Part shown: positions 6,142 to 63,688 of the stretch, piece by piece
How positions within the stretch are numbered: position 1 is the first letter of the stretch
Layout: each line of letters opens with the position of its first letter
Assembly (NCBI GenBank): GCA_964016885.1
Contig: CAXHJY010001283.1
Coordinates: 1 to 64,000, forward strand
Reading direction: 5' to 3'
Length of the DNA: 64,000 nucleotides
DNA from: Eledone cirrhosa
Taxonomy: Eukaryota
Notes under the pieces: generated by a model
What the model saw: the letters and a program-made list of their open reading frames with translations, nothing else
Told to the model about the DNA's origin: nothing
The model's database searches: none
Made by a program: the position numbers and the translations under genes

Positions 6142-6449
6142 TATATGAAATATAAGAATCAAAGAACTGTTCAAAACATTATTGTGCTTACAGCTGTTTC
6201 CTCCAAACCGAGGTTTGGATTCTTCGGAGCAATTTATTAATGTATGGACAGTTATATGACCTCCTTTTCACCAAGAGACATACCAATACATATTCAATAT
6301 GTATTGGTATGTCTCTCGGCTGAAAAGGAGGTCATATAACTGTCCATGCATTAATAAATTGCTCCGAAGAATCCAAACCTCGGTTTGGAGGAAGCAGCTG
6401 TAAGCACAATAATGTTTTGAACAGTTCTTTGATTCTTATATTTCATATA
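6142..6449. repeat. 308-bp near-perfect palindrome carrying two inverted hammerhead motifs
   Basis: Arms of about 153 bp around a single C at 6295, with one indel and few mismatches. Hammerhead motifs at 6185-6231 (-) and 6360-6406 (+). Confidence 0.95.
6185..6231 (-). ncRNA. Minimal hammerhead ribozyme motif, variant core CCGAAGA
   Basis: Minus strand reads TGCT-CCGAAGA-A-TCCAAAC-CTCG-GTTTGGA-G-GAAA-CAGCTG-TA-AGCA. Palindromic stem III as in Penelope minimal hammerheads. Confidence 0.7.
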
Positions 6450-6549
6450 TTTCATACATATACATATATATATACATATACATCTATACATCTATATATA
6501 TACATATACATCTATATATATACATATACATCTATATATATACATATAC

Positions 6550-6580
<31 letters not shown>

Positions 6581-6936
6581 CACACATATATATATACATA
6601 CATATACATATATACATATACATATATATACATATACATACATCTATATATATATATATACATCTACATACATATACATCTATATATATATATACATCTA
6701 TATATATATATACATATATATATATATACATCTATATATATATATATACATCTATATATATATATATACATCTATATATATATATATACATCTATATATA
6801 TATATATACATCTATATATATATATATATATATATACATCTATATATATATATATATATATATACATCTATATATATATATATATACATCTATATATATA
6901 TATATATACATCTATATATATATATATACATATATA

Positions 6937-8547
6937 GGTTCCCTGCTTGTGTCTTGAAGGCGTGTCAACACCAACTTGCTTCTCCTCTTGCCAATCTGTG
7001 GCGGAACTCACTGGATGCTGGATATGTGCCAGAAAACCTTCTATCCCAGTCTGTTGTCCCAGTTTTCAAAAAGGGAAACAAATCCCTTGCCGTGAATTAC
7101 CGTCCAATCTCACTCACCTCTCATATCATTAAGGTATTTGAGCGAGTGGTGAGATCGCGAATGACCCACTTCCTTGAGAGTAACAATATGCTGAACTCCA
7201 ACCAGCATGGATTCCGTAATGGAAGGGATTGCCTGACGCAACTACTGCATCACTTTGATGACATTTTGAGAGCCTTGGGAGAGGGTTCCAACACTGATGT
7301 TATCTACCTTGATTTCAGCAAGGCCTTTGACAGGGTTGATCATAACATTCTACTGAGAAAGCTGTCCAATATTGGTGTCACTGGAAAGCTGCTGCAGTGG
7401 ATCAAGAGCTTCCTGTCAAACAGAACCCAACATGTTGTAGTTGAGGGAGTCAAGTCAAGCCCAGCCAAGGTCAGTAGTGGAGTCCCACAAGGCACTGTGT
7501 TGGGCCCACTTCTCTTCATCATCTATATTAATGACATCACTGACATCATCAAACACAGCAACATTAAAATTTTCGCTGATGATTCCAAGCTCCAAAAGGT
7601 CATCAATGGCGTGGATGACCGGATTAAGCCTTCAGTCAGACCTACTGGCTGTTACCCAATGGGCAGAAAAGAACAACATGTTACTGAACGAAGACAAATT
7701 CGAACTGATCCACTTTGGAAAAGAGGATGCTCTGAAACTCCCGTACTCCCTTCCCTCCGGGGAAACTCTCGTGGCATCTAACAACATCAGAGACTTGGGA
7801 GTAACCGTGGACAGCAACATAAGCTGGACCACGCATATAAGCAGCAAAGTTGACATGGCCCGCAGAATGTGTTCCTGGATCCTCAGAACCTTCCAGTCGA
7901 GAGATTCCCGCACCATTATCCTTCTCTTCTCTACTTTCGCCCGACCACACCTTGAATACTGTTGTCCACTGTGGTCTCCCCACACGAAACAAAGTATCAT
8001 GAAACTTGAAGCTCCTCAAAGGGCAATCACGAAAAAGATAGATGGCATGTCAGACCTTGACTACTGGGGTCGATTGGAAAACCTGAAACTTTACTCACTC
8101 CAACGTCGCCGTGAGCGTTATATTATCTGCATGATGTGGAAAATGTTCCATCATCACTGCCCAAATGATGTTGGCATCGCCTTCAAGATACACCCAAGGC
8201 TTGGGCCCCGTGCTATCCGTCCCATTCAAAAATCTAAATCGCAACTCATAACAACAATACGGCACAATTATTTCACCTCAATCGGCCCTGCTCTCTTCAA
8301 CATCACACCAGGACACGTCAAAACAGAAACTGACCACACAAAATTCAAGAAGTCTTTGGACAAATTCCTCCAAGTAATCCCGGACAAACCACCCACACCC
8401 GGATATGTCTCCGCAAACAGTAATTCTCTTCTCGAATGGGCCATGGTGCCCAAATCCTGAATTGAAAGACTTCGCCAGGTGGTGCTATTAAGTTAGACAT
8501 GGCCTGGGCCAATACTGGCCAAAACATTTCAAAGTTATTCAAAGTTA
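6937..8547 (+). mobile_element. 5'-truncated CR1-clade LINE (RT and C-terminus) inserted in a (TA)n tract
   Basis: [37 protein letters not shown] and RPHLEYCCPLWSP motifs. One frameshift near 7625. Tandem ttcaaagtta tail. Confidence 0.93.
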
Positions 8548-8783
8548 TATATATATATATATATACATCTATATATATATATATATATATATAAATATAT
8601 ACATCTATATATATATATATATACATCTATATATATATATATATACATCTATATATATATATATATATATATAAATATATACATCTATATATATATATAT
8701 ATACATCTATATATATATATATATATACATCTATATATATATATATATATATATATACATCTATATATATATATATATATACA

Positions 8784-8821
<38 letters not shown>

Positions 8822-9297
8822 TATACATCTATATATATATATATATACATCTATATATATATATATATATATATATAAATATATACATCTATATATATAT
8901 ATATATACATCTATATATATATATATATATATATATACATCTATATATATATATATATATACATCTATATATATATATATATATACATCTATATATATAT
9001 ATATATATACATCTATATATATATATATATATACATCTATATATTTATATATATATATACATCTATATATATATATATATATATATACATCTATATATAT
9101 ATATATATATACATCTATATATATATATATATATATATACATCTATATATATATATATATATATATACATCTATATATATATATATATATATATACATCT
9201 ATATATATATATATATATATATACATCTATATATATATATATATATATTTACATATATATATATATATATATATATACATCTATATATATATATACA

Positions 9298-9341
<44 letters not shown>

Positions 9342-9357
9342 TATATATATATATACA

Positions 9358-9401
<44 letters not shown>

Positions 9402-9429
9402 TATATATATATATATATATATATATACA

Positions 9430-9467
<38 letters not shown>

Positions 9468-9489
9468 TATATATATATATATATATACA

Positions 9490-9525
<36 letters not shown>

Positions 9526-9588
9526 TATAATATATATACATATATATATACATCTATATATATATATACATATATATATATACATCTA

Positions 9589-9619
<31 letters not shown>

Positions 9620-9671
9620 GTATATATATACATATATATGTATATATATATGTATATATGGAGGCATAGAT

Positions 9672-10015
9672 GGAGGCACATGGCTTAGTGGTTAGAGCAT
9701 TGGCCTTGCAATCAAAAGGTTGTGAGTTCAATTCTCAGACCGGGTGATGTGTTGTTTCCTTGAGCAAGACACTTTATTTCACATTGCTCCAGTTTACTCA
9801 GCTGTAGAAATGAGATGATAGGGACTGAGGTCCATATCATTCCACTGCAAAGTGGTCGTGGTGGTGCCACGGCAAAAAAGCACCCAGCACTCACTGTAAA
9901 TGAGGTTGGTGTTAGGAAGGGCATCCAGCTGTAGAAATCAAGCCAGAATCAGTTCCCGTCCCACCCTTGCAAGCAGGGATAAAGCGGACATAAAATGAAA
10001 AATGAAATGATGAAA
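9672..10015 (+). mobile_element. tRNA-derived SINE with CORE-like central domain and RTE-derived tail
   Basis: A box TGGCTTAGTGG, B box GTTCAATTC, ccttgagcaagacacttta motif. Near-identical copy at 48795-49140. Confidence 0.85.
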
Positions 10016-10026
10016 TGAATATATCT

Positions 10027-10440
10027 ATCTAAGGCAGGTAAAATTCCCGAGATCCATGGACGAGTTCTCTCCAGCGGTCTCTGTCCCTCATTATCGCTGC
10101 CATATCCTGCATCTCCAACAGACCAGTGTCTGTCCTTAGGGCATCAACATATGTTAACCTTGGTCTTCTTCTTCTAGTGTGTCCATGTAGGGGCTCCCAA
10201 AGGAGCACTGACTGCAATGTCAACTCTGGATGTCAGTGAGCATGTCCAGCTAACCTCAGTCTCCTCTGTGCTACTTTCGAACTGACTTTTGGGATGCTCC
10301 CATACAGCTCTGAGTTTTTCATCCTCAGTGTATACTGATTAATGTTCAGAGCCATCCTCAGCATTCTCGTGTAGGACCCATCCACCATCTGAGTGAGTCT
10401 CTTGGTCAGTGTCCAAGTCTCAGACCCGTGCAGCAATGAA
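10027..10440 (-). mobile_element. RTE-clade LINE family C, 3' fragment
   Basis: [14 protein letters not shown]...RRLRLAGH...GRPRLTYVD. Copies at 15732-16105, 31006-31436 and 46452-46890. Confidence 0.88.
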
Positions 10441-10497
10441 GAGATGTATATATATATATGTATATATATATATATAATATATATATATATGTATATA

Positions 10498-10585
<88 letters not shown>

Positions 10586-10586
10586 C

Positions 10587-10637
<51 letters not shown>

Positions 10638-10643
10638 TACATC

Positions 10644-10676
<33 letters not shown>

Positions 10677-10772
10677 GTATATATATATGTATATATATAT
10701 GTATATATGTATATATAATATATATATATATAATATATATATATATATATAATATATATATATATGTATATA

Positions 10773-10853
<81 letters not shown>

Positions 10854-10869
10854 GTATATATATATATAC

Positions 10870-10912
<43 letters not shown>

Positions 10913-11711
10913 GTGAAAGCAACTGGTGCGTGTGTTTCTTATTGGCAACATGACCCTCCCAAAGTATAACAATATCGGTTTCAACACACGATTTCAGATA
11001 AAGAATCTTGCTAAACAAATTCAGAAACGAAATATATATATACATATATATATACACATATATATATACATATATATATATATACATTTATATATATACA
11101 TATATATATGTATATATATACATATATATATTTCTATATAAACGTATATATATATATAAACGTATATATATATAAACGTTTATATATAAACGTTTATATA
11201 TAAACGTATATATATAAACGTATATATATATATAAACATATATATAAACATATATATATATATAAACGTATATATATATATAAACATATATATAAACATA
11301 TATATATATATAAACGTATATATATATATAAACGTATATATATATATAAACGTATATATATATATATATATATATACGTATATATATATATATATATATA
11401 TACGTATATATATATATATATATACGTATATATATATATATATATATACGTATAATATATACGTATATATATATACGTATATATATATATATGTACGTAT
11501 ATATATATATATGTATATATATATATGTATATATATATATATGTATATATATATATGTATATATATATATGTATATATATATATGTATATATATATATGT
11601 ATATATATATGTATATATATATATGTATATATATATATGTATATATATATATATGTATATATATATATGTATATATATATATGTATATATACATATGTAT
11701 ATATATATATG

Positions 11712-11742
<31 letters not shown>

Positions 11743-11749
11743 GTATATA

Positions 11750-11800
<51 letters not shown>

Positions 11801-12116
11801 GATAACCCTCCCTTGTGAATATATCATAGAACAGACAAGGGGAAGACGGAGGCTCTGTAAGCCGTAATGTAGGCAACTCGTCTAGGAGAGCTACAACTCC
11901 GAATAATTTGGTGCGGCGGGGTAGAGAAGTCCCCTAAGTCCAGTAAGACAACTTCGCTAGTGCTGGTGGCACGAATAAAAGCATCCAGTCCATGCTGTAA
12001 AATGAAGGGGTAGATAGGGCCCCTGAATCCAGTAAGACACCCTCTCTAGTGCTGGTGTTAGGAAGGGTATCCAACTAGTATAATAAATGCCAAAATTATG
12101 AGCACAACAAATAAGA

Positions 12117-12158
<42 letters not shown>

Positions 12159-12364
12159 ATAGATAGAAATAAACACACAAAGAAGTGACAGAGAGGAATA
12201 GAAAAATCTAAAGCAATGCAATAAAAACAAACTAAATGGAAGCAAACTACATTTAGAATAGCACATGTCAACCTAAGCATAAAGCAAGACTATGTTACAA
12301 AAATTAGAAATCAAATCCAGGTTCACCTGCAATGTATACATATATACATACACACACATATATA

Positions 12365-13458
12365 CTTGTCTAAGACTAAAGTTCTAGTATGTAGAAAGGA
12401 AAATAGAGCACAGGTACCCTCTGGGAAATGGCCATGCTCACTGTGTAAGAAAATAGTAGGTAGAAACTCCATATGTCCCAAATGCAAACTATGTATACAT
12501 AAAAGATGTAGTGGGATCACAGGTAAGCTATCTAAGAATGTAGATTTTATATGTGGCCGATGCTCAGGTGCAATAAGTAGCAGGTGCCCACAGGATACTA
12601 GCTCCTTCTGATGGTTCTATAGAAATAGTAGGCGCTTTCCATTACCTGGGGGACAAAATCAGCAGTGGAGGAAGGTGTTCTGAAAGTACAGTAGCCAGAG
12701 TTAGAACGAGATGGAAAAAGTTCAGAGAGCTAATACCGCTGTTGGCCACAAGGGTTTTTTCTCTAAAAGTGAAAGGCAGATTGTATGATGCTTGTATACG
12801 AACAGAGATATTACATGGTAGTGAGACATGGGCATTGTGTGGTGAAGACTTGCGTAGATTAGAAAGAAATGAAGCTTGCATGCTCTGATAGATGTGTAAT
12901 AGTAATATACGCGAACAGCGAAGCATAAAAGAATTGAGAAACAGACTAAGCACAAGAGGTATCAAATGTGTTCTGTAGAGGAGATTACGTTGGTATGGAC
13001 ATGTGATGGGTCTGAAGGATGACAGCTGTATAAAAAAGTGCAGAGCAATGAAAATTGATGGAAGCTATGGAGTGGGTAGACCAAGAAAAATCTGGGATGA
13101 GGTGATAAAAACCTGACCTTGCCCACTTACACCTCTCTAGGACAATGACACTGCATCGAGATCTTTGGCACCATGCAGTTGTACAGAAGACCTGCCTTCC
13201 CTTACGTTCGAAGTTAAATCTACAGTCAGTAGGCACTACTTAACCCAATTTACACCCCATCCTCCCATTTCCATTCCGTCCATTGTGTTGACACAACAGT
13301 CCACAGTATAAATGTGGTGGGTGTTAGGAAGGGCAACCAGCTGTAAAAAACTGCCAGAGACATTTCCGTACGAGTGAGACACGGTCTCCCGACCATTCCC
13401 GCATCAAATGGAACAAAACTGTCTAACCGATGCTAGCAATGATGACAATGATGATGAT
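12365..13458 (+). mobile_element. Degenerate RTE family A 3' fragment
   Basis: Same motifs as 1421-2620, with stops and frameshifts; (GAT)n tail. Confidence 0.88.
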
Positions 13459-13637: not shown

Positions 13638-13670
<33 letters not shown>

Positions 13671-13706
13671 ACCAGTACATTGTTATGTTTTTCTGTTCAA
13701 TTTCTA

Positions 13707-17706: not shown

Positions 17707-18520
17707 TTCATCATCATTTTACGTCCGCTTTTCCCTGCTTGCAAGGGTGGGACGGGTCTTATTCAGCACAGCATCTCTCCACTTGTCACGGTCCTTCGTC
17801 ATCTCCACAGTGAGCTTCAATGATCTGATGTCTGTTCTCCCCACCTCCGCCCATGTTTTTCGTGGTCTACCTCTACCACGTCTTCCTTCAACTGGCATTT
17901 CCTGGCACTTCTTCACCCATCGGTCACCCTCCATGTGCATCACATGTCCATACCACCTCAGTCTCCTCTCCCGTACACTACATTCTATCCCTCTCTGACA
18001 CAGTTTCTCTCTCAACACATTCATGCTGGGTCGTTCACGCACATTGACATTGCACATCCAACGGAGCATGCTTGCCTCATTCCTCTTCAGCCGTCGCATA
18101 TCCTCTGCGGTTGCTGCCCATGTCTCACTACCATGCAGCATCGCGCTACTCACACAGGCATCATACAACCAGCCTTTCGTACGCAGAGAGAAACCCTTCT
18201 TCGTCAAGAGAGGAAGCAGCTCCCTAAACTTTTTCCAACCCGTCCTTATTCTAGATACTATGGCCTCGGAACACCCTCCTCCCATGCTAATCTGATCTCC
18301 TAGGTACCGGAAGCTATCCACCACTTCTATAGCACCCACCTGCATTTGAAAAATGTGTCTATCAATGCGACTTCTGTCTAATTTCCCTGTACATCTACTG
18401 CATACGTATTTCTCCCTGCCTGTTAGTTTGCCTGCTATCCCACTACATCTCTTGTGTACCCAGGATCTGCATTGTGTGCATTTTATAGAATTTATGCCAG
18501 TTCCTTTTCTGCATATCGAA
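17707..18520 (-). mobile_element. RTE family B 3' fragment
   Basis: ORF 17719-18582: CSICRKG...MLHGSETW...GRPRKTW. Closely related to 40980-41775. Confidence 0.92.
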
Positions 18521-18737
18521 CATGCTGTGCAAGTGGAGAGATTACTGATTACATTAGACAGTGTAACACAATCTCTCTTCAATTTCTGTGCATATTGTCA
18601 ATTACAATTTTATTTGATGTATCATATCTACATGTATATATATTTGCATATAATATCAATATACACATTACACATGCTAGCAGAAAACCACTTGAAGCGT
18701 GGTTTTTCTGCTAGTAAAAACAATATCGATTACTTAC

Positions 18738-18973: not shown

Positions 18974-19812
18974 AAAGTACCTAGTACACACTGTAAAGTG
19001 GTCATGTAGGTGTCACAACAAAAAGTACTCAGTCCACACTGTAAAGTGGTCATGTAGCTGTCACAACAAAAAGTACCCAGTACACACTGTAAAGTGGTCA
19101 TGTAGGTGTCACAACAACAAGTACCCAGTACACACTGTAAAGTGGTCATGTAGGTGTCACAACAACAAGTACCCAGTACACACTGTAAAGTGGTCATGTA
19201 GGTGTCACAACAAAAAGTACCCAGTACACACTGTAAAGTGGTCATGTAGGTGTCACAACAAAAAGTACCCAGTATACACTCTAAAGTGGTCATGTAGGTG
19301 TCACAACAACAAGTACCCAGTACATACTGTAAAGTAGTCATGTAGGTGTCACAACAAAAAGTACCCAGTACACACTGTAAAGTGGTCATGTAGGTGTCAC
19401 AACAAAAAGTACCCAGTATACACTCTAAAGTGGTCATGTAGGTGTCACAACAAAAAGTACCCAGTACATACTGTAAAGTGGTCATGTAGGTGTCACAACA
19501 AAAAGTACCCAGTACACACTGTAAAGTGGTCATGTAGGTGTCACAACAAAAAGTACCCAGTACACACTGTAAAGTGGTCATGTAGGTGTCACAACAAAAA
19601 GTACCCAGTACACACTGTAAAGTGGTCATGTAGGTGTCACAACAAAAAGTACCCAGTACACACTGTAAAGTGGTCATGTAGGTGTCACAACAAAAAGTAC
19701 CCAGTACACACTGTAAAGTGGTCATGTAGGTGTCACAACAAAAAGTACCCAGTACACACTGTAAAGTGGTCATGTAGGTGTCACAACAAAAAGTACCCAG
19801 TACATACTGTAA
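18974..19812. repeat. 48-bp minisatellite (about 17 copies) inside an RTE 3' UTR
   Basis: Unit cactgtaaagtggtcatgtaggtgtcacaacaaaaagtacccagtaca. Runs into the normal RTE tail (aggaagggcatccagctgta...gatgatgat) ending near 19946. Confidence 0.95.
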
Positions 19813-19979
19813 ATGAGGTTGGCATTAGGAAGGGCATCCAGCTGTATGAGCAAGAAGTAGTCACCTGACCTAACATTGCCCACAACAGGACAACTCATCT
19901 AACCCATGCTAGAGTGGAAACATGAACATTAAACGGTGATGATGATCTCAGCTATGACAATATGGAAACCTTATATATC

Positions 19980-22900
19980 ACTCTGTAAAGTGGTAGTGTT
20001 GGTGTCATGATATAATACACCCAGTACACTCTGTAAAGTGGTAGTGTTGGTGTCATGATAGAATACACCCAGTACACTCTGTAAAGTGGTAGTGTTGGTG
20101 TCATGATAGAATACACCCAGTACACTCTGTAAAGTGGTAGTGTTGGTGTCATGATAGAATACACCCAGTACACTCTGTAAAGTGGTAGTGTTGGTGTCAT
20201 GATAAAATACACCCAGTACACTCTGTAAAATGTTAGTGTTGGTGTCATGATATAATACACCCAGTACACTCTGTAAAGTGTTAGTGTTGGTGTCATGATA
20301 TAATACACCCAGTACACTCTGTAAAATGTTAGTGTTGGTGTCATGATATAATACACCCAGTACACTCTGTAAAATGTTAGTGTTGGTGTCATGATATAAT
20401 ACATCCAGTACACTCTGTAAAGTGGTAGTGTTGGTGTCATGATATAATACACCCAGTACACTCTGTAAAGTGGTAGTGTTGGTGTCATGATAGAATACAC
20501 CCAGTACACTCTGTAAAGTGGTGGTGTTGGTGTCATGATAGAATACACCCAGTACACTCTGTAAAGTGGTAGTGTTGGTGTCATGATAGAATACACCCAG
20601 TACACTCTGTAAAGTGTTAGTGTTGGTGTCATGATATAATACACCCAGTACACTCTGTAAAGTGGTAGTGTTGGTGTCATGATAGAATACACCCAGTACA
20701 CTCTGTAAAGTGGTGGTGTTGGTGTCATGATATAATACACCCAGTACACTCTGTAATGTGGTAGTGTTGGTGTCATGATATAATACACCCAGTACACTCT
20801 GTAAAGTGTTAGTGTTGGTGTCATGATATAATACACCCAGTACACTCTGTAAAGTGGTAGTGTTGGTGTCATGATATAATACACCCAGTACACTCTGTAA
20901 AGTGGTAGTGTTGGTGTCATGATAGAATACACCCAGTACACTCTGTAAAGTGTTAGTGTTGGTGTCATGATATAATACACCCAGTACACTCTGTAAAGTG
21001 TTAGTGTTGGTGTCATGATATAATACACCCAGTACACTCTGTAAAGTGGTAGTGTTGGTGTCATGATATAATACACCCAGTACACTCTGTAAAGTGGTAG
21101 TGTTGGTGTCATGATAGAATACACCCAGTACACTCTGTAAAGTGTTAGTGTTGGTGTCATGATATAATACACCCAGTACACTCTGTAAAGTGTTAGTGTT
21201 GGTGTCATGATATAATACACCCAGTACACTCTGTAAAGTGTTAGTGTTGGTGTCATGATATAATACACCCAGTACACTCTGTAAAGTGGTAGTGTTGGTG
21301 TCATGATATAATACACCCAGTACACTCTGTAAAGTGGTAGTGTTGGTGTCATGATATAATACACCCAGTACACTCTGTAAAGTGTTAGTGTTGGTGTCAT
21401 GATAGAATACACCCAGTACACTCTGTAAAGTGTTAGTGTTGGTGTCATGATATAATACACCCAGTACACTCTGTAAAGTGTTAGTGTTGGTGTCATGATA
21501 TAATACACCCAGTACACTCTGTAAAGTGGTAGTGTTGGTGTCATGATATAATACACCCAGTACACTCTGTAAAGTGGTAGTGTTGGTGTCATGATAGAAT
21601 ACACCCAGTACACTCTGTAAAGTGTTAGTGTTGGTGTCATGATATAATACACCCAGTACACTCTGTAAAGTGGTAGTGTTGGTGTCATGATATAATACAC
21701 CCAGTACACTCTGTAAAGTGGTAGTGTTGGTGTCATGATAGAATACACCCAGTACACTCTGTAAAGTGGTGGTGTTGGTGTCATGATAGAATACACCCAG
21801 TACACTCTGTAATGTGGTAGTGTTGATGTCATGATATAATACACCCAGTACACTCTGTAAAGTGGTAGTGTTGGTGTCATGATAGAATACACCCAGTACA
21901 CTCTGTAAAGTGGTAGTGTTGGTGTCATGATAGAATACACCCAGTACACTCTGTAAAGTGGTAGTGTTGGTGTCATGATATAATACACCCAGTACACTCT
22001 GTAAAGTGGTAGTGTTGGTGTCATGATAGAATACACCCAGTACACTCTGTAATGTGGTAGTGTTGGTGTCATGATATAATACACCCAGTACACTCTGTAA
22101 AGTGGTAGTGTTGGTGTCATGATATAATACACCCAGTAAACTCTGTAAAGTGGTAGTGTTGGTGTCATGATAGAATACACCCAGTACACTCTGTAATGTG
22201 GTGGTGTTGGTGTCATGATAAAATACACCCAGTACACTCTGTAAAGTGATAGTGTTGGTGTCATGATAAAATACACCCAGTACACTCTGTAATGTGGTGG
22301 TGTTGGTGTCATGATAAAATACACCCAGTACACTCTGTAAAGTGATAGTGTTGGTGTCATGATATAATACACCCAGTACACTCTGTAAAGTGGTAGAGTT
22401 GGTGTCATGATATAATACACCCAGTACACTCTGTAAAGTGGTAGTGTTGGTGTCATGATATAATACACCCAGTACACTCTGTAAAGTGGTAGTGTTGGTG
22501 TCATGATATAATACACCCAGTACACTCTGTAAAGTGGTAGTGTTGGTGTCATGATAGAATACACCCAGTACACTCTGTAAAGTGGTAGAGTTGGTGTCAT
22601 GATATAATACACCCAGTACACTCTGTAAAGTGGTAGTGTTGGTGTCATGATATAATACACCCAGTACACTCTGTAAAGTGGTAGTGTTGGTGTCATGATA
22701 GAATACACCCAGTACACTCTGTAAAATGGTAGTGTTGGTGTCATGATATAATACACCCAGTACACTCTGTAAAGTGGTAGTGTTGGTGTCATGATATAAT
22801 ACACCCAGTACACTCTGTAAAGTGGTAGTGTTGGTGTCATGATAGAATACACCCAGTACACTCTGTAAAGTGGTAGTGTTGGTGTCATGATAGAATACAC

Positions 22901-25900
22901 CCAGTACACTCTGTAAAGTGGTAGTGTTGATGTCATGATATAATACACCCAGTACACTCTGTAAAGTGGTAGTGTTGGTGTCATGATAGAATACACCCAG
23001 TACACTCTGTAAAGTGGTAGTGCTGGTGTCCTGATATAATACACCCAGTACACTCTGTAATGTGGTAGTGTTGGTGTCATGATAAAATACACCCAGTACA
23101 CTCTGTAAAGTGGTAGTGTTGGTGTCATGATAGAATACACCCAGTACACTCTGTAAAGTGGTAGTGTTGGTGTCATGATATAATACACGCAGTACACTCT
23201 GTAAAGTGGTAGTGTTGGTGTCATGATAGAATACACCCAGTACACTCTGTAAAGTGGTAGTGTTGATGTCATGATATAATACACCCAGTACACTCTGTAA
23301 AGTGGTAGTGTTGGTGTCATGATAGAATACACCCAGTACACTCTGTAACGTGGTAGTGTTGGTGTCATGATATAATACACCCAGTACACTCTGTAAAGTG
23401 GTAGTGTTGATGTCATGATAGAATACACCCAGTACACTCTGTAAAGTGGTAGTGTTGGTGCCATGATATAATACACCCAGTACACTCTGTAAAGTGGTGG
23501 TGTTGGTGTCATGATAGAATACACCCAGTACACTCTGTAAAGTGGTAGTGTTGGTGTCATGATAGAATACACCCAGTACACTCTGTAAAGTGGTGGTGTT
23601 GGTGTCATGATAGAATACACCCAGTACACTCTGTAAAGTGGTAGTGTTGGTGTCATGATAAAATACACCCAGTACACTCTGTAAAGTGGTAGTGTTGGTG
23701 TCATGATAGAATACACCCAGTACACTCTGTAAAGTGGTAGTGTTGATGTCATGATAGAATACACCCAGTACACTCTGTAAAGTGGTAGAGTTGGTGTCAT
23801 GATAGAATACACTCAGTACACTCTGTAAAGTGGTAGTGTTGGTGTCATGATATAATACACCCAGTACACTCTGTAAAGTGGTAGTGTTGGTGTCATGATA
23901 GAATACACCCAGTACACTCTGTAAAGTGGTAGTGTTGATGTCATGATAGAATACACCCAGTACACTCTGTAAAGTGGTAGAGTTGGTGTCATGATATAAT
24001 ACACCCAGTACACTCTGTAAAGTGGTAGTGTTGGTGTCATGATATAATACACCCAGTACACTCTGTAAAGTGGTAGTGTTGGTGTCATGATATAATACAC
24101 CCAGTACACTCTGTAAAGTGGTAGTGTTGGTGTCATGATAGAATACACCCAGTACACTCTGTAAAGTGGTAGAGTTGGTGTCATGATATAATACACCCAG
24201 TACACTCTGTAAAGTGGTAGTGTTGGTGTCATGATATAATACACCCAGTACACTCTGTAAAGTGGTAGTGTTGGTGTCATGATAGAATACACCCAGTACA
24301 CTCTGTAAAATGGTAGTGTTGGTGTCATGATATAATACACCCAGTACACTCTGTAAAGTGGTAGTGTTGGTGTCATGATATAATACACCCAGTACACTCT
24401 GTAAAGTGGTAGTGTTGGTGTCATGATAGAATACACCCAGTACACTCTGTAAAGTGGTAGTGTTGGTGTCATGATAGAATACACCCAGTACACTCTGTAA
24501 AGTGGTAGTGTTGATGTCATGATATAATACACCCAGTACACTCTGTAAAGTGGTAGTGTTGGTGTCATGATAGAATACACCCAGTACACTCTGTAAAGTG
24601 GTAGTGCTGGTGTCCTGATATAATACACCCAGTACACTCTGTAATGTGGTAGTGTTGGTGTCATGATAAAATACACCCAGTACACTCTGTAAAGTGGTAG
24701 TGTTGGTGTCATGATAGAATACACCCAGTACACTCTGTAAAGTGGTAGTGTTGGTGTCATGATATAATACACGCAGTACACTCTGTAAAGTGGTAGTGTT
24801 GGTGTCATGATAGAATACACCCAGTACACTCTGTAAAGTGGTAGTGTTGATGTCATGATATAATACACCCAGTACACTCTGTAAAGTGGTAGTGTTGGTG
24901 TCATGATAGAATACACCCAGTACACTCTGTAACGTGGTAGTGTTGGTGTCATGATATAATACACCCAGTACACTCTGTAAAGTGGTAGTGTTGATGTCAT
25001 GATAGAATACACCCAGTACACTCTGTAAAGTGGTAGTGTTGGTGCCATGATATAATACACCAAGTACACTCTGTAAAGTGGTGGTGTTGGTGTCATGATA
25101 GAATACACCCAGTACACTCTGTAAAGTGGTAGTGTTGGTGTCATGATAGAATACACCCAGTACACTCTGTAAAGTGGTGGTGTTGGTGTCATGATAGAAT
25201 ACACCCAGTACACTCTGTAAAGTGGTAGTGTTGGTGTCATGATAAAATACACCCAGTACACTCTGTAAAGTGGTAGTGTTGGTGTCATGATAGAATACAC
25301 CCAGTACACTCTGTAAAGTGGTAGTGTTGGTGTCATGATAGAATACACCCAGTACACTCTGTAAAGTGGTAGTGTTGGTGTCATGATAGAATACACCCAG
25401 TACACTCTGTAAAGTGGTAGTGTTGGTGTCATGATATAATACACCCAGTACACTCTGTAAAGTGGTAGTGTTGGTGTCATGATAAAATACACCCAGTACA
25501 CTCTGTAAAGTGGTAGTGTTGGTGTCATGATATAATACACCCAGTACACTCTGTAAAGTGGTAGTGTTGGTGTCATGATAGAATACACCCAGTACACTCT
25601 GTAAAGTGGTGGTGTTGGTGTCATGATATAATACACCCTGTACACTCTGTAAAGTGGTAGTGTTGGTGTCCTGATATAATACACCCAGTACACTCTGAAG
25701 TGGTGGTGTTGGTGTCATGATAGAATACACCCAGTACACTCTGTAAAGTGGTAGAGTTGGTGTCATGATAGAATACACCCAGTACACTCTGTAAAGTGGT
25801 GGTGTTGGTGTCATGATATAATACACCCAGTACACTCTGTAAAGTGGTAGAGTTGGTGTCATGATATAATACACCCAGTACACTCTGTAAAGTGGTAGTG

Positions 25901-28670
25901 TTGGTGTCATGATATAATACACCAAGTACACTCTGTAAAGTGGTAGTTTTGGTGTCATGATAAAATATACCCAGTACACTCTGTAAAGTGGTAGAGTTGG
26001 TGTCATGATATAATACACCCAGTACACTCTGTAAAGTGGTAGAGTTGGTGTCATTATATTACACACCCAGTACACTCTGTAAAGTGGTAGTATTGGTGTC
26101 AAGATAGAATACACCCAGTACACTCTGTAAAGTGGTAGAGTTGGTGTCATGATATAATACACCCAGTACACTCTGTAAAGTGGTAGAGTTGGTGTCATTA
26201 TATTACACACCCAGTACACTCTGTAAAGGGGTAGTGTTGGTGTCATGATAAAATACACCTAGTACACTCTGTAAAGTGGTAGTGTTGGTGTCATGATAGA
26301 ATACACCCTGTACACTCTGTAAAGTGGTAGTGTTGGTGTCATGATAGAATACACCCAGTACACTCTGTAAAGTGGTAGTGTTGGTGTCATGATATAATAC
26401 ACCCAGTTCACTCTGTAAAGTGGTAGTGTTAGTGTCATGATAAAATACACCCAGTACACTCTGTAAAGTGGTAGTGTTGGTGTCATGATAGAATACACCC
26501 AGTACACTCTGTAAAGTGGTAGTGTTGGTGTCATGATATAATACACCCAGTACACTCTGTAAAGTGGTAGTGTTGGTGTCATGATGGAATACACCCAGTA
26601 CACTCTGTAAAGTGGTGGTGTTGGTGTCATGATATAATACACCCTGTACACTCTGTAAAGTGGTAGTGTTGGTGTCCTGATATAATACACCCAGTACACT
26701 CTGTGAAGTGGTGGTGTTGGTGTCATGATAGAATACACCCAGTACACTCTGTAAAGTGGTAGAGTTGGTGTCATGATATAATACACCCAGTACACTCTGT
26801 AAAGTGGTGGTGTTGGTGTCATGATATAATACACCCAGTACACTCTGTAAAGTGGTAGAGTTGGTGTCATGATATAATACACCCAGTACACTCTGTAAAG
26901 TGGTAGTGTTGGTGTCATGATATAATACACCAATTACACTCTGTAAAGTGGTAGTGTTGGTGTCATGATAAAATATACCCAGTACACTCTGTAAAGTGGT
27001 AGAGTTGGTGTCATTATATTACACACCCAGTACACTCTGTAAAGTGGTAGTATTGGTGTCATGATAGAATACACCCAGTACACTCTGTAAAGTGGTAGAG
27101 TTGGTGTCATGATATAATACACCCAGTACACTCTGTAAAGTGGTAGAGTTGGTGTCATTATATTACACACCCACTACACTCTGTAAAGGGGTAGTGTTGG
27201 TGTCATGATAAAATACACCTAGTACACTCTGTAAAGTGGTAGTGTTGGTGTCATGATAGAATACACCCTGTACACTCTGTAAAGTGGTAGTGTTGGTATC
27301 ATGATATAATACACCCAGTACACTCTGTAAAGTGGTAGTGTTGGTGTCATGATAAAATACATCCAGTACACTCTGTAAAGTGGTAGTGTTGGTGTCATGA
27401 TAGAATACACCCAGTACACTCTGTAAAGTGGTAGTGTTGGTGTCATGATATAATACACCCAGTTCACTCTGTAAAGTGGTAGTGTTAGTGTCATGATAAA
27501 ATACACCCAGTACACTCTGTAAAGTGGTAGTGTTGGTGTCATGATAGAATACATCCAGTACACTCTGTAAAGTGGTAGTGTTGGTGTCATGATAGAATAC
27601 ATCCAGTACACTCTGTAAAGTGGTAGTGTTGGTGTCATGATATAATACACCCAGTACACTCTGTAAAGTGGTGGTGTTGGTGTCATGATATAATACACCC
27701 TGTACACTCTGTAAAGTGGTAGTGTTGGTGTCATGATAGAATACATCCAGTACACTCTGTAAAGTGGTAGTGTTGGTGTCATGATATAATACACCCAGTA
27801 CACTCTGTAAAGTGGTGGTGTTGGTGTCATGATATAATACACCCAGTAAACTCTGTAAAGTGGTAGTGTTGGTGTCATGATAGAATACATCCAGTACACT
27901 CTGTAAAGTGGTAGTGTTGGTGTCATGATAGAATACATCCAGTACACTCTGTAAAGTGGTGGTGTTGGTGTCATGATATAATACACCCAGTAAACTCTAA
28001 AGTGGTAGTGTTGGTGTCATGATAGAATACATCCAGTACACTCTGTAAAGTGGTAGTGTTGGTGTCATGATAGAATACATCCAGTACACTCTGTAAAGTG
28101 GTGGTGTTGGTGTCATGATAAAATACATCCAGTACACTCTGTAAAGTGGTAGTGTTGGTGTCATGATAGAATACACCCAGTACACTCTGTAAAGTGGTAG
28201 TGTTGGTGTCATGATAGAATACATCCAGTACACTCTGTAAAGTGGTGGTGTTGGTGTCATGATAAAATACATCCAGTACACTCTGTAAAGTGGTAGTGTT
28301 GGTGTCATGATAGAATACACCCAGTACACTCTGTAAAGTGGTAGTGTTGGTGTCATGATAGAATACATCCAGTACACTCTGTAAAGTGGTGGTGTTGGTG
28401 TCATGATAAAATACATCCAGTACACTCTGTAAAGTGGTAGTGTTGGTGTCATGATAGAATACACCCAGTACACTCTGTAAAGTGGTAGTGTTGGTGTCAT
28501 GATAGAATACATCCAGTACACTCTGTAAAGTGGTGGTGTTGGTGTCATGATAAAATACATCCAGTACACTCTGTAAGGTGGTAGTGTTGGTGTCATGATA
28601 GAATACATCCAGTACACTCTGTAAAGTGGTGGTGTTGGTGTCATGATAAAATACATCCAGTACACTGTAA
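19980..28670. repeat. About 8.7-kb satellite of 48-bp units (about 180 copies) with higher-order duplications
   Basis: Unit ctctgtaaagtggtagtgttggtgtcatgat(a/g)aatacacccagtaca; no spacers. Confidence 0.98.
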
Positions 28671-39400: not shown

Positions 39401-41775
39401 GATTGACTTCTTGCTAATTAGGCAAATACTAAGGCATACCCTGGGGAAGAATGTACCGCCCAACACAGGTTAGTTGTTAGTGACATCTCAGTAAGCAAGA
39501 GATGGAATGAGACATACAGGAAGGTGTGGAAAAAAAAAGTCTGGAAGCTAAAAGACCTTTCACTTAAATATAAATTTAGGAAAGCCCTTCAAGATGTGTA
39601 TGACGAAAAAGAAGACGATTTAGAATTGTATGACATAGATGATAACTGGAATTTCTTACGTGACAACTTACTGCAGGCTACTGATGAAACTTGTGGCTGG
39701 AGCAGAGCTCCAATCAGACAGAGAGTGAACTGGTGGTGGAACAGCACAGTAGATAAGGCCATTAGAGACAAAAGACTAGCATGGAAGGCTTGGAAAAAGG
39801 GTGGGAGTAGGGAAGGATATACAGCCGCTAAGAGAGAAGCTAGACGTCAGGTGTACTTAGCACACAGGGAGGCGGAGAGTAGGGGGTTTGCCAATGTTCT
39901 GCGACGGGAAAATCAGAGGCGTGCGGTGTTCCACATTGCAAGGCAGTGTGTCAATGCAAATCAGGATATTGTGGGAGATAAATGTGTCCAGGATGATGCC
40001 GGTGTACTTAGTGTCACGAATGATCAGAAAAAGGAGGCCTGGAAATGTCATTATGAGAGACTGGTGAATGTGGAGAACGAATGGGAGAGAGAGAAATTAC
40101 CCTTAATAGATCCGACAGAGGGACCAGCTATTGAGATTGACGAATATAGGGTCCAAGAGGTGATTAGGGAAATGAAAAATGGTAAGGTTGCTGGACCATC
40201 GGGGATAGTTGCTGAGATGCTGAAGGCATCAGGGGACGTAGGCACTAAACTGGTTGCACGCATCATCAATCAGGCTATATATGGTGGTGTCATACCCAAA
40301 GACTGGTGCAGCAGTATTCTCATAAATTGCTACAAAGGTAAAGGGAATGCTCTGGAGAGGAGCAATTATAGGGGTATAAAACTGATAGATCAGGTTATGA
40401 AAGTGGCAGAAAGGATATTAGCACAACTAATTAGAGAAAGGGTCAAACTAGATGAGATGCAGTTTGGTTTTGTGCCTGGGAAGAGTACAACAGATGCCCT
40501 CTTCTTGGTGAGACAATTACAAGAGAGGTTCTTAGGGAAAAATAAGCCACTATACTTAGCCTTTGTTGACCTAGAGAAGGCCTTTGACAGGGTACTCCGA
40601 TCTGTCATCTGGTGGTCCCTAAGGAAACTAAGTGTTGAAGAATGGCTTGTGAGGACAGTGCAAACTTTGTACAGAGGTACTGTCAGTAAAGTCAGGGTAA
40701 GAATGGAGTTTAGTGAGGAATTCCAGATTCAAGTAGGAGTACATCAAGGTTCGGTCCTCAGCCCACTCTTATTCATTATAGTCCTCCAAGCCATAACAGA
40801 GGAGTTTAAGACTGGCTGTCCATGGGAACTTCTCTATGCTGACGATCTGGTTCTTATAGCAGAATCAGTAGAGGAGCTAGAGAATAAATTCTAGCTATGG
40901 AAACAGCAGTTGGAAGCAAGAGGACTGAGAGTGAACGAAGCTAAGACAAAAATGTTGATGAGTAGAAAAGAGGAAATGGCTATGTTCGATATGCAGAAAA
41001 GGAACTGGCATAAATTCTATAAAATGCACACAATGCAGATACTGGGTACACAAGAGATGTAGTGGGCTAGCAGGCAAACTAACAGGTAGGGAGAAATACG
41101 TATGCAGTAGATGTACAGGCAAATTAAACAGAAGTCTCATTGATAGACAAATTTTTCAAATGCAGGCAGGTGCTATAGAAGTGGTGGATAGCTTCCGGTA
41201 CCTAGGAGATCAGATTAGCATGGGAGGAGGGTGTTCCGAGGCCATAGTATCTAGAATAAGGATGGGTTGGAAGAAGTTTAGGGAGCTGCTTCCTCTGTTG
41301 ACGAAGAAGGGTTTCTCCCCGCGTACGAAAGGCCGGTTATAAGATGCCTGTGTGAGGAGCGCGATGCTGCATGGTAGTGAGACATGGGCAGCAACTGCAG
41401 AGGATATGCGACGGCTGGAGAGAAATGAGGCAAGCATGCTCCGTTGGATGTGCAGTGTAAATGTGTGTGAACGACCCAGCATGAATGTGTTGAGAGAGAA
41501 ACTGTGTCTGAGAGGGATAGAATGTAGTGTATGGGAGAGGAGACTGAGGTGGTATGGACATGTGATGCGCATGGAGGATGACCGATCGGTGAAGAAGTGC
41601 CAGGAAATGCCAGTTGAAGGAAGACATGGTAAGAGGTAGACCACGAAAAACATCATATCGTTGAAGCACACGGTGGAGATGACGAAGGACCGTGAAAAGT
41701 GGAGAGATACTGTGCTGAATAAGACCCGTCCCACCCTTGCAAGCAGGGAAAAGCAGACGTTAAATGATGATGATG
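39401..41775 (+). mobile_element. RTE family B LINE, about 2.4 kb, with 456-aa open RT frame
   Basis: End of APE (IDFLL...EECTAQHRLV), NYRGIKL, QFGFVPGKSTTDA, GVHQGSVLSP, LYADDL; stops at 40892 and 41340; (GAT)n tail. Confidence 0.95.
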
Positions 41776-55874: not shown

Positions 55875-55917
55875 CTGCACAATACATCAATAATGAGAAA
55901 ATATGATTAATAAACTC

Positions 55918-56962: not shown

Positions 56963-58072
56963 CACTGTAAAGTGGTTATGTAGATGTCACAACAAAAAGT
57001 ACCCAGTCCACACTGTAAAGTGGTCATGTAGGTGTCATAACAAAAAGTACCCAGTCCACACTGTAAAGTGGTCATGTAGGTGTCACAACAAAAAGTACCC
57101 AGTATACACTGTAAAATGGTCATGTAGGTGTCACAACAAAAAGTACCCAGTACACACTGTAAAGTGGTCATGTAGGTGTCACAACAAAAAGTACCCAGTA
57201 CACACTGCAAAGTGGTCATGTAGGTGTCACAACAAAAAATAGCCAGTACACACTGTAAAGTGGTCATGTAGGTGTCACAACAAAAAATAGCCAGTACACA
57301 CTGTAAAGTGGTCATGTAAGTGTCACAACAATAAGGACCCAATACCCACTGTAAAGTGGTCATGTAGGTGTCACAAGTATCCAGTACATACTGTAAAGTG
57401 GTCATGTAGGTGTCGCAACAAAAAGTACCCAGTCCACACTGTAAAGTGGTCATGTAGGTGTCACAACAAGTACCCAGTACACACTGTAAAGTGGTCATGT
57501 AGGTGTCGCAACAAAAAGTACCCAGTCCACACTGTAAAGTGGTCATGTAGGTGTCACAACAAGTACCCAGTCCACACTGTAAAGTGGTCATGTAGGTGTC
57601 GCAACAAAAAGTACCCAGTACACACTGTAAAGTTGTCATGTAGGTGTAACAACAAAAAGTACCCAGTACACACTGTAAAGTGGTCATGTAGGTGTTGCAA
57701 CAAAAAGTACCCAGTACACACTGTAAAGTTGTCATGTAGGTGTCGCAACAAAAAGTAACCAGTACACACTGTAAAGTGGTCATGTAGGTGTCGCAACAAA
57801 AAGTAACCAGTACACACTGTAAAGTGGTCATGTAGGTGTCACAACAAAAAGTACCCAGTCCAAACTGTAAAGTGGTCATGTAGGTGTCATGACAAAAAGC
57901 ACCAAGCGTGTATGTGGTTAGTGTTAGGAAGGGCATCCAGCTGTAGAAATCTAGCTAGAAACAGTTCTATATGAGCAAGACAGTCACCTGACCCAACTTG
58001 CCTCCAATGGAACAAACCTGTATAACCCATGCTACCGTGGAACATGGACGTTAAACAATGATAAATGATGAT
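56963..58072 (+). repeat. Second 48-bp minisatellite (about 19 copies) inside an RTE 3' UTR
   Basis: Same unit as 18974-19812; ends in the RTE tail. Confidence 0.93.
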
Positions 58073-58139
58073 ATGTATGTATATATCCATGCATCTTTCC
58101 AGTCTCATTTTCACCAAAACAAAATAAAAGTCACATCAC

Positions 58140-61060: not shown

Positions 61061-61071
61061 TACATATATAT

Positions 61072-62408
61072 ATGAAGAAGTGCCAGGAAATGCCAGTTGA
61101 AGGAAGACGTGGTAGAGGTAGACCACGAAAAACATGGGCGGAGGTGGTGAGAACAGACCTCAGATCATTGAAGCTCACGGTGGAGATGACGAGGGACCGT
61201 GACGAGTGGAGAGATGCTGTGCTGAATAAGACCCGTCCCACCCTTGCAAGCAGGGAAAAGCGGACGTAAAATGATGATGATGATGATATATATCATCATC
61301 ATCATCACCATCACCATTTTACGTCCACTTTTCCACGCTAGCGTGGGTTAAACGGGTTGTCCTGTTGTTGGCCATGCCAGGTCAGGTGACCATGTCTTGC
61401 TCATACGGGAACTGATTTTGGCTCAGTTTCTACAGCTGGATGCCCTTCCTAACACCAACCTCATTTACAGTGAGTACCGGGTGCTTTTTTACCGTAGCGC
61501 CTACACAGGTGCTTTCTTGTCGTGACACCTCCATGACAGTGGGAGAGGGTTGGAGTGTATTGTCTATATGCTTCAGCTTCGGCTTGTACGCATCTTCTGT
61601 ATTACTGCGTGACGCCAGAAGTCACGGTCCTGTGTCATCACCGTTGAGATGTAATTGGGCAAGGACAGCTTTTATCACTTCATCCCAGGTCTTCTTGGGT
61701 CTCCCCACTCCGCGACTTCCAGCGCTCTGCACCTTTTTATGCAGCTGTCATCCTTCATATGTATCACATGTCCATACCAACGTAACCTCCTCTCCTACAT
61801 ACATTTGATTTCTCTTATGCTCAGTCTCTCTCTCAATTCGTTTATGCTTTGCTGTTGGCATATATTACAATTATACATCCATCAGACCATGCAGGCTACG
61901 TTTCTTTCTAATCTATGCAAGTCTTCTACAGACAGCGCCCAGGTCTCACTTCCATGTAACATTGCTGTTTGTATGCATGTATCATACAGTCTGCCTTTCA
62001 TTTTGAAGGAAAAGCCTTTTGCAGCTAGCAGTGGCTCCCTGAACTTCTTCCATCCTGTTCTTACGCTTGTTTCCTGTGGCTGTTTGCTGCTTACTGTCCC
62101 GGCACAGCTACATGTAAAGCCTATATTCCTAACTAAGCTTCCTGAGATCCCACATCTCGTGTACCCATAGTTTGCATATGGTGCAGAGGATAGAGTTCCT
62201 ACTAACACCTTTCCTATATACTGAGCAAGGCCATTTACCTAAGGGTCTGCCTTTCATTTTGAGGGAAAAGCTTTTTGCAGCTAGCAGTGGTAGTAGCTCC
62301 CTGAACTTCTTCCATCCCATTCTTACACTGCTTAATGTACTTTCAGAACACCCGCCTCCGCTGCTAATTCGGTCACCTCGGTAGCAGAAGCTGTCTACTG
62401 TTTCTACA
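61072..62408. mobile_element. Tail-to-tail RTE fragments: family B (+, 61072-61287) and rearranged family A (-, 61292-62408)
   Basis: Homology to other copies in the window. Confidence 0.85.
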
Positions 62409-62444
62409 TATATATATATATATGTACATACATATAAATCAGAT

Positions 62445-63060
62445 GGATTCAACAGAGTACTCGATACTTGGGGTAGTAGAGTATGGTTACATTATAAAGA
62501 GTCATGACCCCGACGGCCGAGTTCCTGCCGTTTCAACAGCTGGTTCCTGATTCTGGAATGGTTTGTCTTGCTGCCTGAATGCCGGTCGCTTTGCACATCA
62601 CACAGAGCTAAACCTCATTTTTAAGAGAGCTTTGGCCCAAGCAAAAATCCCCTCAATTTTGGAACCATCTGGTTTGTCCAGAATTGATGGGAAAAGACCT
62701 GATGGCCTTACCCTGTGCCCCTGGTCGAGAGCAGATGCCTTGTCTGGAACGTCACACTTAGCGACTTTTTTGCTTCTTCCCACATCACGGATGCTGTGGT
62801 TAGTGTGAGAGCCACAGCTTCTGCAGCCGAACGGAGCAAAATCCTAAAATACCGTGATCTGCCGGCCAACTACATTTTCCAGCCTGTGGCGTTCGAGGGA
62901 GTCGGGCTACTGACTGCGTGATACCTATCTTCACTGTTGGCTCGCCTAACAGAGGTAACTGGTGATGCTCCTGAGGGTGCTTGGTTGTTCCAGTACCTCA
63001 GCCTCGCCATCACACGAGGTAACGCTGTGAGCATGTAGGCTTGCCTCAAAAGTTATTAGA
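62445..63060 (+). mobile_element. CRE-clade non-LTR retrotransposon 3' fragment (restriction-like endonuclease)
   Basis: GRFAHHTELN...EPSGLSRIDGKRPDGLTLCPWSR..CLVWNVT...AAERSKILKY...FQPVAFE: PD-(D/E)xK RLE signature of CRE elements. Confidence 0.8.
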
Positions 63061-63199
63061 GAGGTTTCCCAATGCTCCTCGCAATATTATCTTTTGCTCT
63101 GGTAGTGGCTCAACTATCCAACCCTTTCGCCTGCCTTTTGTTGTATGTGGTGCTAGATGTGTGTATTACCTGTTTGTTTTTTTCCCCTTCAGATCCAGC

Positions 63200-63588
63200 G
63201 CATAGGTCGACCCCTAAAATTCTGAGATATAATTCAGGTTTAAGCCTATATTCGTCGGATAAGACGACCGGCACTCTCAGTCGCAAGTTAAGTTCTAACT
63301 CCGAGTAAACCATCCTACCCTTACCTTAATGAACCTATGGTAACCTACCCTATGAGCTATGACAAGTCGTTGATATTATAATCTCTGCGTTAAATAGATT
63401 TAACAAATATGAGACTCAGTAGAAAATAATTGTGGTAGGCTGCTAGAGTTAGGTAAGTGGTGTACAACAAGTGTTAGGCAGGCCATCTCACTGTTTACCC
63501 CTTTATATTCGTCGGACAAGTCGACCCCTGGTTTTGGAAAGATTTTTTTAGGCTCCAAATGTCGACTTGTATGCCGGTATATACGGTA
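63200..63588. mobile_element. pogo/Tc2-type DNA transposon end
   Basis: Terminus gtcgacttgtatgccggtatatacgg|ta with internal taagtcgacc-type repeats. Confidence 0.6.
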
Positions 63589-63641
63589 TATATATATATA
63601 TAAATTACAGAATAATCAAAACTATGTTCAAAACCTTTTAT

Positions 63642-63688
63642 TGCTGACAATCGTTTCTTCCAAACTTTCATTTGGAATCATCGGAGCA
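63642..63688 (-). ncRNA. Minimal hammerhead ribozyme motif, variant core CCGATGA
   Basis: Minus strand reads TGCT-CCGATGA-TTCCAAA-TGAAAG-TTTGGAA-GAAAC-GATT-GTC-AGCA. The flank resembles 6155-6185. Confidence 0.72.

What the first reader, a model, noticed from the sequence alone, without database searches (positions are those of the whole stretch)
6185..63688. Recurrent variant hammerhead core CCGANGA (U4C) in two diverged copies
Seen: 6185-6231, 6360-6406 and 63642-63688 all have CCGA(A/U)GA rather than CUGANGA. They keep stem I UGCU/AGCA and a UCCAAA/UUUGGA stem II but differ in loop II, stem III and triplet (GUA vs GUC). Persistence across diverged copies argues for a family trait rather than decay. 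Inference: a natural core-variant ribozyme family that canonical searches would miss.
Basis: partly seen in the sequence, partly recalled or inferred. Interest (0 to 1): 0.7.

Follow-up and report, generated by a model that had tools for sequence, protein, structure and literature searches.

The report
Transposon hammerheads with fixed core C
The three motifs are tail ends of Penelope-type jumping genes whose hammerhead (self-cutting RNA) motif carries C instead of the textbook U at one core position in thousands of copies, while the rest of the core stays unchanged, so it likely still cuts, slowly and as a pair, which would suit elements that are likely copied from uncut RNA.

Summary
Confirmed as a family trait. 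All three motifs are type I minimal hammerheads with C at position 4. Copies 1 and 2 are the arms of one fold-back insertion; copy 3 is a related subfamily. They are 3' stubs of a Hydra-clade Penelope-like retroelement; an intact copy has an 819-aa RT/GIY-YIG ORF between two hammerhead-bearing repeats. Genome-wide, C4 outnumbers U4 6,459 to 194. Across 11 subfamilies up to 41% diverged, ten other core positions are invariant, all 12 free positions vary, and the palindrome needed for dimer cleavage is kept. Against a required fast cut: copy ends lie 47 or about 200 nt beyond the cleavage site, never at it; some full-length copies came from G8-mutant templates; an unrelated family amplified with A4. 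Best reading: a slow, dimer-dependent ribozyme. Cleavage is untested; no RNA run was listed. This scan noted the same trait before, in this genome and others.

The parts
5978..6297 (-). 3'-terminal 321 bp of a young Hydra-clade Penelope-like element (subfamily A1), 5'-truncated, inserted in (TA)n; its 3' end lies 211 nt past the predicted cleavage site
   Evidence: 99.1% identical to the 3' end of full-length copy L042; end position; TA arrays on both sides
6185..6231 (-). Type I minimal hammerhead, copy 1: stem I 6231-6228/6188-6185, C3 6227, C4 6226, G8 6222, stem II 6219-6213/6208-6202, G12-A15.1 6200-6197, palindromic loop III, GUA; predicted cut between 6189 and 6188
6293..6449 (+). Inverted (fold-back) 157-bp segment of the same insertion, ending 47 nt past the predicted cleavage site
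   Evidence: 98.7% to L042; a transcript of both arms is predicted to be one long hairpin, -259 kcal/mol
6360..6406 (+). Hammerhead copy 2: C4 at 6365, with G in place of A15.1 at 6394
63598..64000 (-). 3' end of a related element (subfamily B1), ending 48 nt past the predicted cleavage site; it continues beyond the window and is followed by inverted segments that hold a fourth C4 hammerhead at contig position 64548
   Evidence: 92.6% to L046; L041 hammerheads; end position
63642..63688 (-). Hammerhead copy 3: C3 63684, C4 63683, GNRA loop II, near-palindromic loop III, GUC; predicted cut between 63646 and 63645

Best explanation
The motifs are pseudo-LTR hammerheads of a Hydra-clade Penelope-like retroelement lineage in which C4 is the inherited majority letter, and they likely act as slow, dimer-dependent and possibly protein-assisted ribozymes. 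Shown: element anatomy, C4 fixation, conservation of the other core letters, and kept self-complementarity of helix III. Inferred: two hammerheads pair through the 8-nt palindrome; C4 weakens the U-turn but leaves general acid G8 and general base G12 in place; occasional cutting at the upstream repeat trims the 5' end 253 nt before the ORF start (for release from read-through RNA, translation or circularisation). Most RNA must stay intact at the downstream repeat, because reverse transcription starts 47 or about 200 nt 3' of the cut site. A slow core costs little, so both C and U at position 4 are tolerated. The window's own copies are dead stubs.
For: C4 6,459, U4 194, G5A 129 exact matches, reversed-pattern controls 0. 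Core left free: 7,166 matches; in the first 100, C4 94 and U4 6; other core changes sporadic. Eleven subfamily majority rows: 10 of 10 other core positions invariant vs 28 of 89 flank columns (Fisher p=3e-5) and 0 of 12 free positions. One stem II pair covaries A-U/G-C (15 and 6 of 22 rows). The helix III 8-mer is fully self-complementary in 10 of 11 subfamilies through four different sequences; self-duplex -11.1 and -5.8 kcal/mol for copies 1 and 3, monomer fold probability 2e-3 or lower. G8-mutant copies in subfamilies A2/A3 number only 49 and the 30 placed on a tree are scattered. Copy 3' ends: 0 of 37 A alignments and 0 of 25 B1 alignments end at the cut site. Literature passages: U4C lowers activity in vitro yet permits viroid infectivity (PMC3088659); a PLE hammerhead needed its protein to cleave, and uncut RNA was the dominant template (PMC11167929).
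Against: No cleavage assay and no RNA data. In a pairwise-mutagenesis study, all single and double CUGA-turn mutants except the C3-G8 swap had low activity (PMC9901934). Three full-length copies carry the same G8 change in both repeats, so templates with a presumably dead core were inserted. An unrelated Hydra-type family has A at position 4 in 44 of 69 matches and a weak stem I, which shows such motifs can erode while the element still spreads. The subfamilies were partly found with core-requiring patterns; reduces this bias but lists only 100 of 7,166 matches. The subfamilies are related, so the Fisher test overstates independence. The downstream flank is also partly conserved.
Confidence: 0.55

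Rival explanations
1. The hammerhead fold is kept for a non-cleaving job (binding the element's protein, setting the reverse-transcription start at +47, or aiding translation); C4 is allowed because chemistry no longer matters.
For: The +47/48 start site lies at the base of a predicted extended stem I in both subfamilies. G8-mutant templates gave full-length insertions. Hammerhead mutants did not affect insertion in vitro (PMC11167929). A translation role for type I hammerheads is reported in RNA viruses (PMC13725137), although there it needed the catalytic G.
Against: Invariance falls on the catalytic letters, H17 varies only among A, C and U, and the dimer palindrome is kept by compensating changes. 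This is the pattern cleavage would select.
Confidence: 0.2
2. C4 is an early step of neutral erosion: the ribozyme is effectively dead and is being lost.
For: The second family went from C4 to an amplified A4 with a weak stem I. Naiad elements spread without canonical hammerheads (PMC8557442).
Against: C4 has persisted across subfamilies up to 41% diverged with no second core change fixed. In the N7=U branch, U4 copies outnumber G5A copies about 3 to 1 (scaled from the listings), so U4 sublineages amplified but G5A ones did not.
Confidence: 0.13
3. C4 is fully compensated: a protonated cytidine rebuilds the U-turn, helped by an extended stem I, and the ribozyme is near wild-type in speed.
For: A protonated C can replace U in a riboswitch U-turn, with pKa above 8.2 (PMC4105743). 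In this clade only C or U amplified (first 100: C 87, U 10, A 2, G 1). An extended stem I is predicted, 83% of cells paired vs 31-42% in slid controls.
Against: Published U4C hammerheads are slower. Covariation in the extension is modest (5 pairs with double changes; 156 of 500 shuffles reach that). No compensating change specific to C4 was seen.
Confidence: 0.12

Closest known systems
Hammerheads of Hydra-clade Penelope-like elements (Craig et al. 2021, PMC8557442; seen: passages, section 11, supplement parts 1-2 incl. File S2)
   Same: Type I hammerhead in the 3' repeat, palindromic short helix III, C-terminal GIY-YIG with CxCx5C linker, DKT motif, (TA)n targets.
   Different: All 26 Hydra rows of File S2 have CUGANGA; here C4 is the majority letter. 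The repeat unit is 4,198 bp, against generally under 3 kb.
Minimal hammerheads of metazoan PLEs, incl. the U3-A8 variant of Schistosoma (Cervera and De la Pena 2014, PMC4209133; seen: text parts 1-2 of 4, supplement passages)
   Same: 4-bp helix I, 7-bp helix II, unpaired base after A9, palindromic loop III, inverted pairs 100-700 bp apart, a family-wide core variant missed by the descriptor.
   Different: U3-A8 is a compensated pair swap; C4 is an uncompensated change in the U-turn.
U4C hammerhead variant of a viroid (Ambros and Flores 1998; not held, seen only as cited in Perreault et al. 2011, PMC3088659 passages)
   Same: Same core substitution; reported slower in vitro but sufficient in vivo.
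   Different: A sequence variant of a viroid ribozyme, not a letter fixed across a transposon lineage with thousands of genomic copies.
Poseidon element PAc of the green anole (PMC11167929; seen: passages)
   Same: Two reverse-transcription start sites 3' of the hammerhead cut site; uncut RNA as template.
   Different: Different PLE clade; there the hammerhead overlaps the ORF start. The passages seen do not state its position-4 letter.

Membership tests
Type I hammerhead ribozyme | Three-way junction, open helix I, order C3-A9 / stem II / G12-A14 / helix III / UH | tested here: met
   stems 91-98% paired across 22 copies
Type I hammerhead ribozyme | Core letters C3, G5, A6, G8, A9, G12, A13, A14, A15.1, U16.1, H17 | tested here: met
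   copies 1 and 3 and all 11 subfamily majorities; copy 2 has G15.1
Type I hammerhead ribozyme (canonical core) | U4 | tested here: not met
   C4 in 6,459 vs U4 in 194
Type I hammerhead ribozyme | Site-specific self-cleavage | not testable with these tools
   no assay possible; no RNA holder listed
Rfam hammerhead families | Match to a covariance model | tested here: not met
   no hammerhead match at E<=10 for a C4 copy or a U4 copy; none among the 150 of 337 rows shown for the window
PLE minimal dimeric hammerhead | Short helix III with a palindromic loop | tested here: met
   10 of 11 subfamilies fully self-complementary; duplex energies
Penelope-like element (EN+) | Single ORF, RT then GIY-YIG, flanked by direct pseudo-LTRs, with inverted 5' segments | tested here: met
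   L042: 819-aa ORF with YRDD; two repeats identical over 1,369 bp; 710-bp inverted segment. Pfam and PDB sequence searches gave no significant hit; assignment rests on motifs, homologs and atlas neighbours with GIY-YIG/RVT_1
Hydra clade | RWK and DKT motifs, CxCx5C linker, CxxC and CxH, no CCHH | tested here: met
   read by eye from the ORF and alignment A2 against section 11: RWR, DKT, CxCx5C, CxxC, CxH present; CCHH not seen
Hydra clade | Insertion into (TA)n | tested here: met
   flanks
Hydra clade | Canonical hammerhead | tested here: not met
   position 4 is C; otherwise the same architecture as File S2
Hydra clade | Grouping with published Hydra proteins in an RT tree | not tested
   published proteins were compared by eye only

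The most novel reading that the evidence does not exclude
C4 is a selected attenuator: Hydra-clade elements have repeatedly evolved a cytidine U-turn that makes the hammerhead a pH- or protein-gated switch, which sets the balance between cut RNA (for translation or circles) and uncut RNA (for reverse transcription). About 40% of the palindromic-loop minimal hammerheads in this genome would be of this uncounted type.
Probability: 0.2. Interest if true: 0.75.

Novelty: new variant of a known kind. Interest (0 to 1): 0.5.

Why it matters
Why Penelope-like elements keep hammerheads is an open question. This lineage offers a natural series in one genome: C4 subfamilies with intact ORFs, U4 sister copies, sporadic G8 mutants and a separate A4 family. 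Together they make the need for cleavage directly testable. It also matters for surveys: C4 motifs are about 42% of the excess-over-control matches to a minimal-hammerhead pattern in this genome, so CUGANGA-only descriptors undercount them.

Tried and rejected
RNA evidence: no RNA holder listed; the runs laid were contigs of unstated kind and say nothing on cleavage. They show C at position 4 with only a minor U share in two runs; they may come from the same organism, so I do not count them as independent. Strong CpG decay as the source of U4 copies: transitions at CpG are only 8 of 991 vs 49 of 8,866 at other C/G sites, a weak effect. An amplified G8-dead subfamily: rejected, 21 label changes over 71 rows; one identical G8C pair at two loci may be a daughter copy. 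Polarity of the U/C change inside the clade: not resolved; the DNA tree is unrooted and noisy, and the U4-rich E sub-branch (9 of 11) has weak support. Independent origin of C4 in the second family: its endonuclease lies outside the starred A+B clade, but on a long, weakly placed branch, so this is suggested, not shown. RNAalifold recovered only stem II. One search used outer helices shifted by one column and is superseded. Private letters shared by paired repeats were few (0 to 5) and do not separate circle from template-switch models. An antisense reading in the B 3' UTR that I recalled as R4/Dong-like is broken by stops and not shared between subfamilies. Literature searches for a prior report; only PMC3088659 held 'U4C' and only PMC13481778 held 'CYGANGA'. 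Not held: Ambros and Flores 1998, Lünse et al. 2017, and one review whose id I recalled. One supplementary file of PMC4209133 was not searchable. PMC4191386, PMC3907566, PMC6061696, PMC6765202 and bioRxiv 10.64898/2026.07.22.740005 (passages) added nothing on C4.
Full report
Observation. A permissive structural scan of both strands finds three hammerhead-shaped motifs in the window, all with CCGANGA and none with CUGANGA; 100 block shuffles gave none under a stricter filter that the three pass. Each reads as type I: 4-bp stem I, C3-A9, one unpaired base, 7-bp stem II with a 4-nt loop, one unpaired base, G12-A14, a 2-bp helix III with a 4-nt loop, GUH, stem I. Copy 2 has G at 15.1. Copies 1 and 2 are the two arms of one fold-back insertion (5978-6297 and 6293-6449), predicted to fold as one long hairpin if transcribed. 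The window therefore holds two insertions, not three.

The element. The window lies in a 3.0-Gb genome. Both sequences are high-copy repeats (1,843 and 1,993 first-look candidates, 40 scored each). Locus L042 is a full-length copy: two direct repeats identical over 1,369 bp and 4,198 bp apart, each with the C4 hammerhead, an inverted 710-bp segment at the 5' side, and one 819-aa ORF starting 253 nt after the upstream predicted cut site. [quoted passage not shown] It shows RWR, DKT, CxCx5C, CxxC and CxH, matching the Hydra clade of Craig et al. 2021 (section 11), as does insertion in (TA)n. Pfam and PDB sequence searches gave nothing significant; 301 database homologs were found among 7,995 scored. 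Copy 3's family carries broken copies of the same ORF at about 55-85% identity, and both families fall in one starred endonuclease clade.

Family trait. Exact patterns give C4 6,459, U4 194 and G5A 129, with reversed controls 0. With all core letters left free and only stems specified there are 7,166 matches. Among the first 100 listed (counted by eye): position 4 is C in 94 and U in 6; changes elsewhere are C3 2, G5 2, G8 6, A9 1, G12 1, A14 1, C15.2 1, G16.2 2, U16.1 1. A general minimal-hammerhead pattern gives 18,378 U4 matches (control 2,893) and 12,184 C4 matches (control 977); 92 of the first 100 C4 matches belong to this clade.

Selection on the fold. From 136 copies, 11 subfamilies of at least three copies were formed (119 copies; 17 left ungrouped), up to 41% apart. 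Ten core positions other than 4 are invariant, all 12 free positions vary, and 61 of 89 flank columns vary (Fisher p=3e-5; the rows are related and partly found by core patterns, so this is a guide). One stem II pair swaps A-U for G-C. The 8-nt helix III segment is self-complementary in 10 of 11 subfamilies through four sequences. That makes sense for the dimeric hammerhead described for PLEs (PMC4209133), and the monomer fold is predicted to be rare. An extended, bulged stem I is predicted in both window subfamilies, with modest covariation. Position 4 is C in 8 majorities and U in 3; one of those three is inflated by U-targeted sampling, while branch E is truly mixed (12 U and 9 C). U4 exceeds G5A in the N7=U branch but not in the N7=A branch, so U4 sublineages could amplify. 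Position 4 behaves as a C/U site in this clade.

Results against a required fast cut. Copy 3' ends cluster 46-49 nt past the cut site and again at 211 nt (A1) or 147-234 nt (B1); none of 37 and 25 alignments ends at the site (some loci overlap). The template therefore ran through the site, uncut or religated, as reported for the anole element (PMC11167929). G8 mutants of A2/A3 are rare (49) and scattered, but three full-length copies share the same G8 change in both repeats, so such RNAs served as templates at least once each. A second, unrelated Hydra-type family has A4 in 44, C4 in 22, G4 in 2 and U4 in 1 of 69 matches, with a weak stem I.

Mechanism. Shown: anatomy, fixation of C4, conservation pattern, end positions. 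Established knowledge: CUGA forms the U-turn, and mutants there have low activity (PMC9901934); U4C is slower in vitro but viable in a viroid (PMC3088659); a protonated C can replace U in another U-turn (PMC4105743). Inferred: a slow, dimer-dependent, possibly protein-assisted ribozyme that trims the 5' end of some transcripts, while most keep the downstream start sites for reverse transcription. I put this at 0.55; a non-cleaving structural role at 0.2, erosion at 0.13, full compensation at 0.12.

Comparison and novelty. It works like a PLE minimal dimeric hammerhead and sits in a Hydra-clade element, but it fails the canonical U4 criterion; all 26 published Hydra rows have U4. U4C is known as a viroid variant, and a 2026 virome survey uses CYGANGA (PMC13481778, passages). 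My searches found no report of C4 fixed in a transposon lineage, but the most relevant paper (Lünse 2017) was not held. Earlier notes of this scan describe the same trait in this genome and others; they are not independent support. Verdict: real, a new variant of a known kind, activity untested; interest 0.5.

Noticed in passing
G000:C1:23459449 (L119, L273, L275); L274-L283: An unrelated Hydra-type family with a 4-bp stem II has A at hammerhead position 4 in 44 of 69 matches and C in 22, with a weak stem I; an endonuclease fragment lies upstream in L119/L273 and L282.
   Followed up: partly
L252, L253, L254: Three full-length copies carry the same rare G8 change in both direct repeats although the repeats differ by 4-5% elsewhere; this suggests one template segment copied twice, or a donor that already had it.
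   Followed up: partly
L263 and L264 (G000:C1:4405500-4410500; C1:404301500-404306000); L122: Further hammerheads downstream of a separate endonuclease clade read U4 in one copy and C4 in another; L122 holds another C4 motif with an 8-bp stem I.
   Followed up: no
L264:117-1049: Three identical canonical hammerheads spaced 466 bp apart, a retrozyme-like tandem array.
   Followed up: no
window 18979-28666, 56963-57903: Arrays of a 48-bp unit, the largest with about 181 copies at 95% match.
   Followed up: no
window 39422-40894, 17719-18597; L041:6246-8923: Fragments of a LINE-like element: RVT_1, a PHD finger inside or after the RT, and an endonuclease domain; many related pieces lie across the window.
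   Followed up: partly
window 277-11800: Kilobase-long (TA)n-type arrays, the insertion target of these elements; they produce the spurious microRNA matches in Rfam.
   Followed up: no
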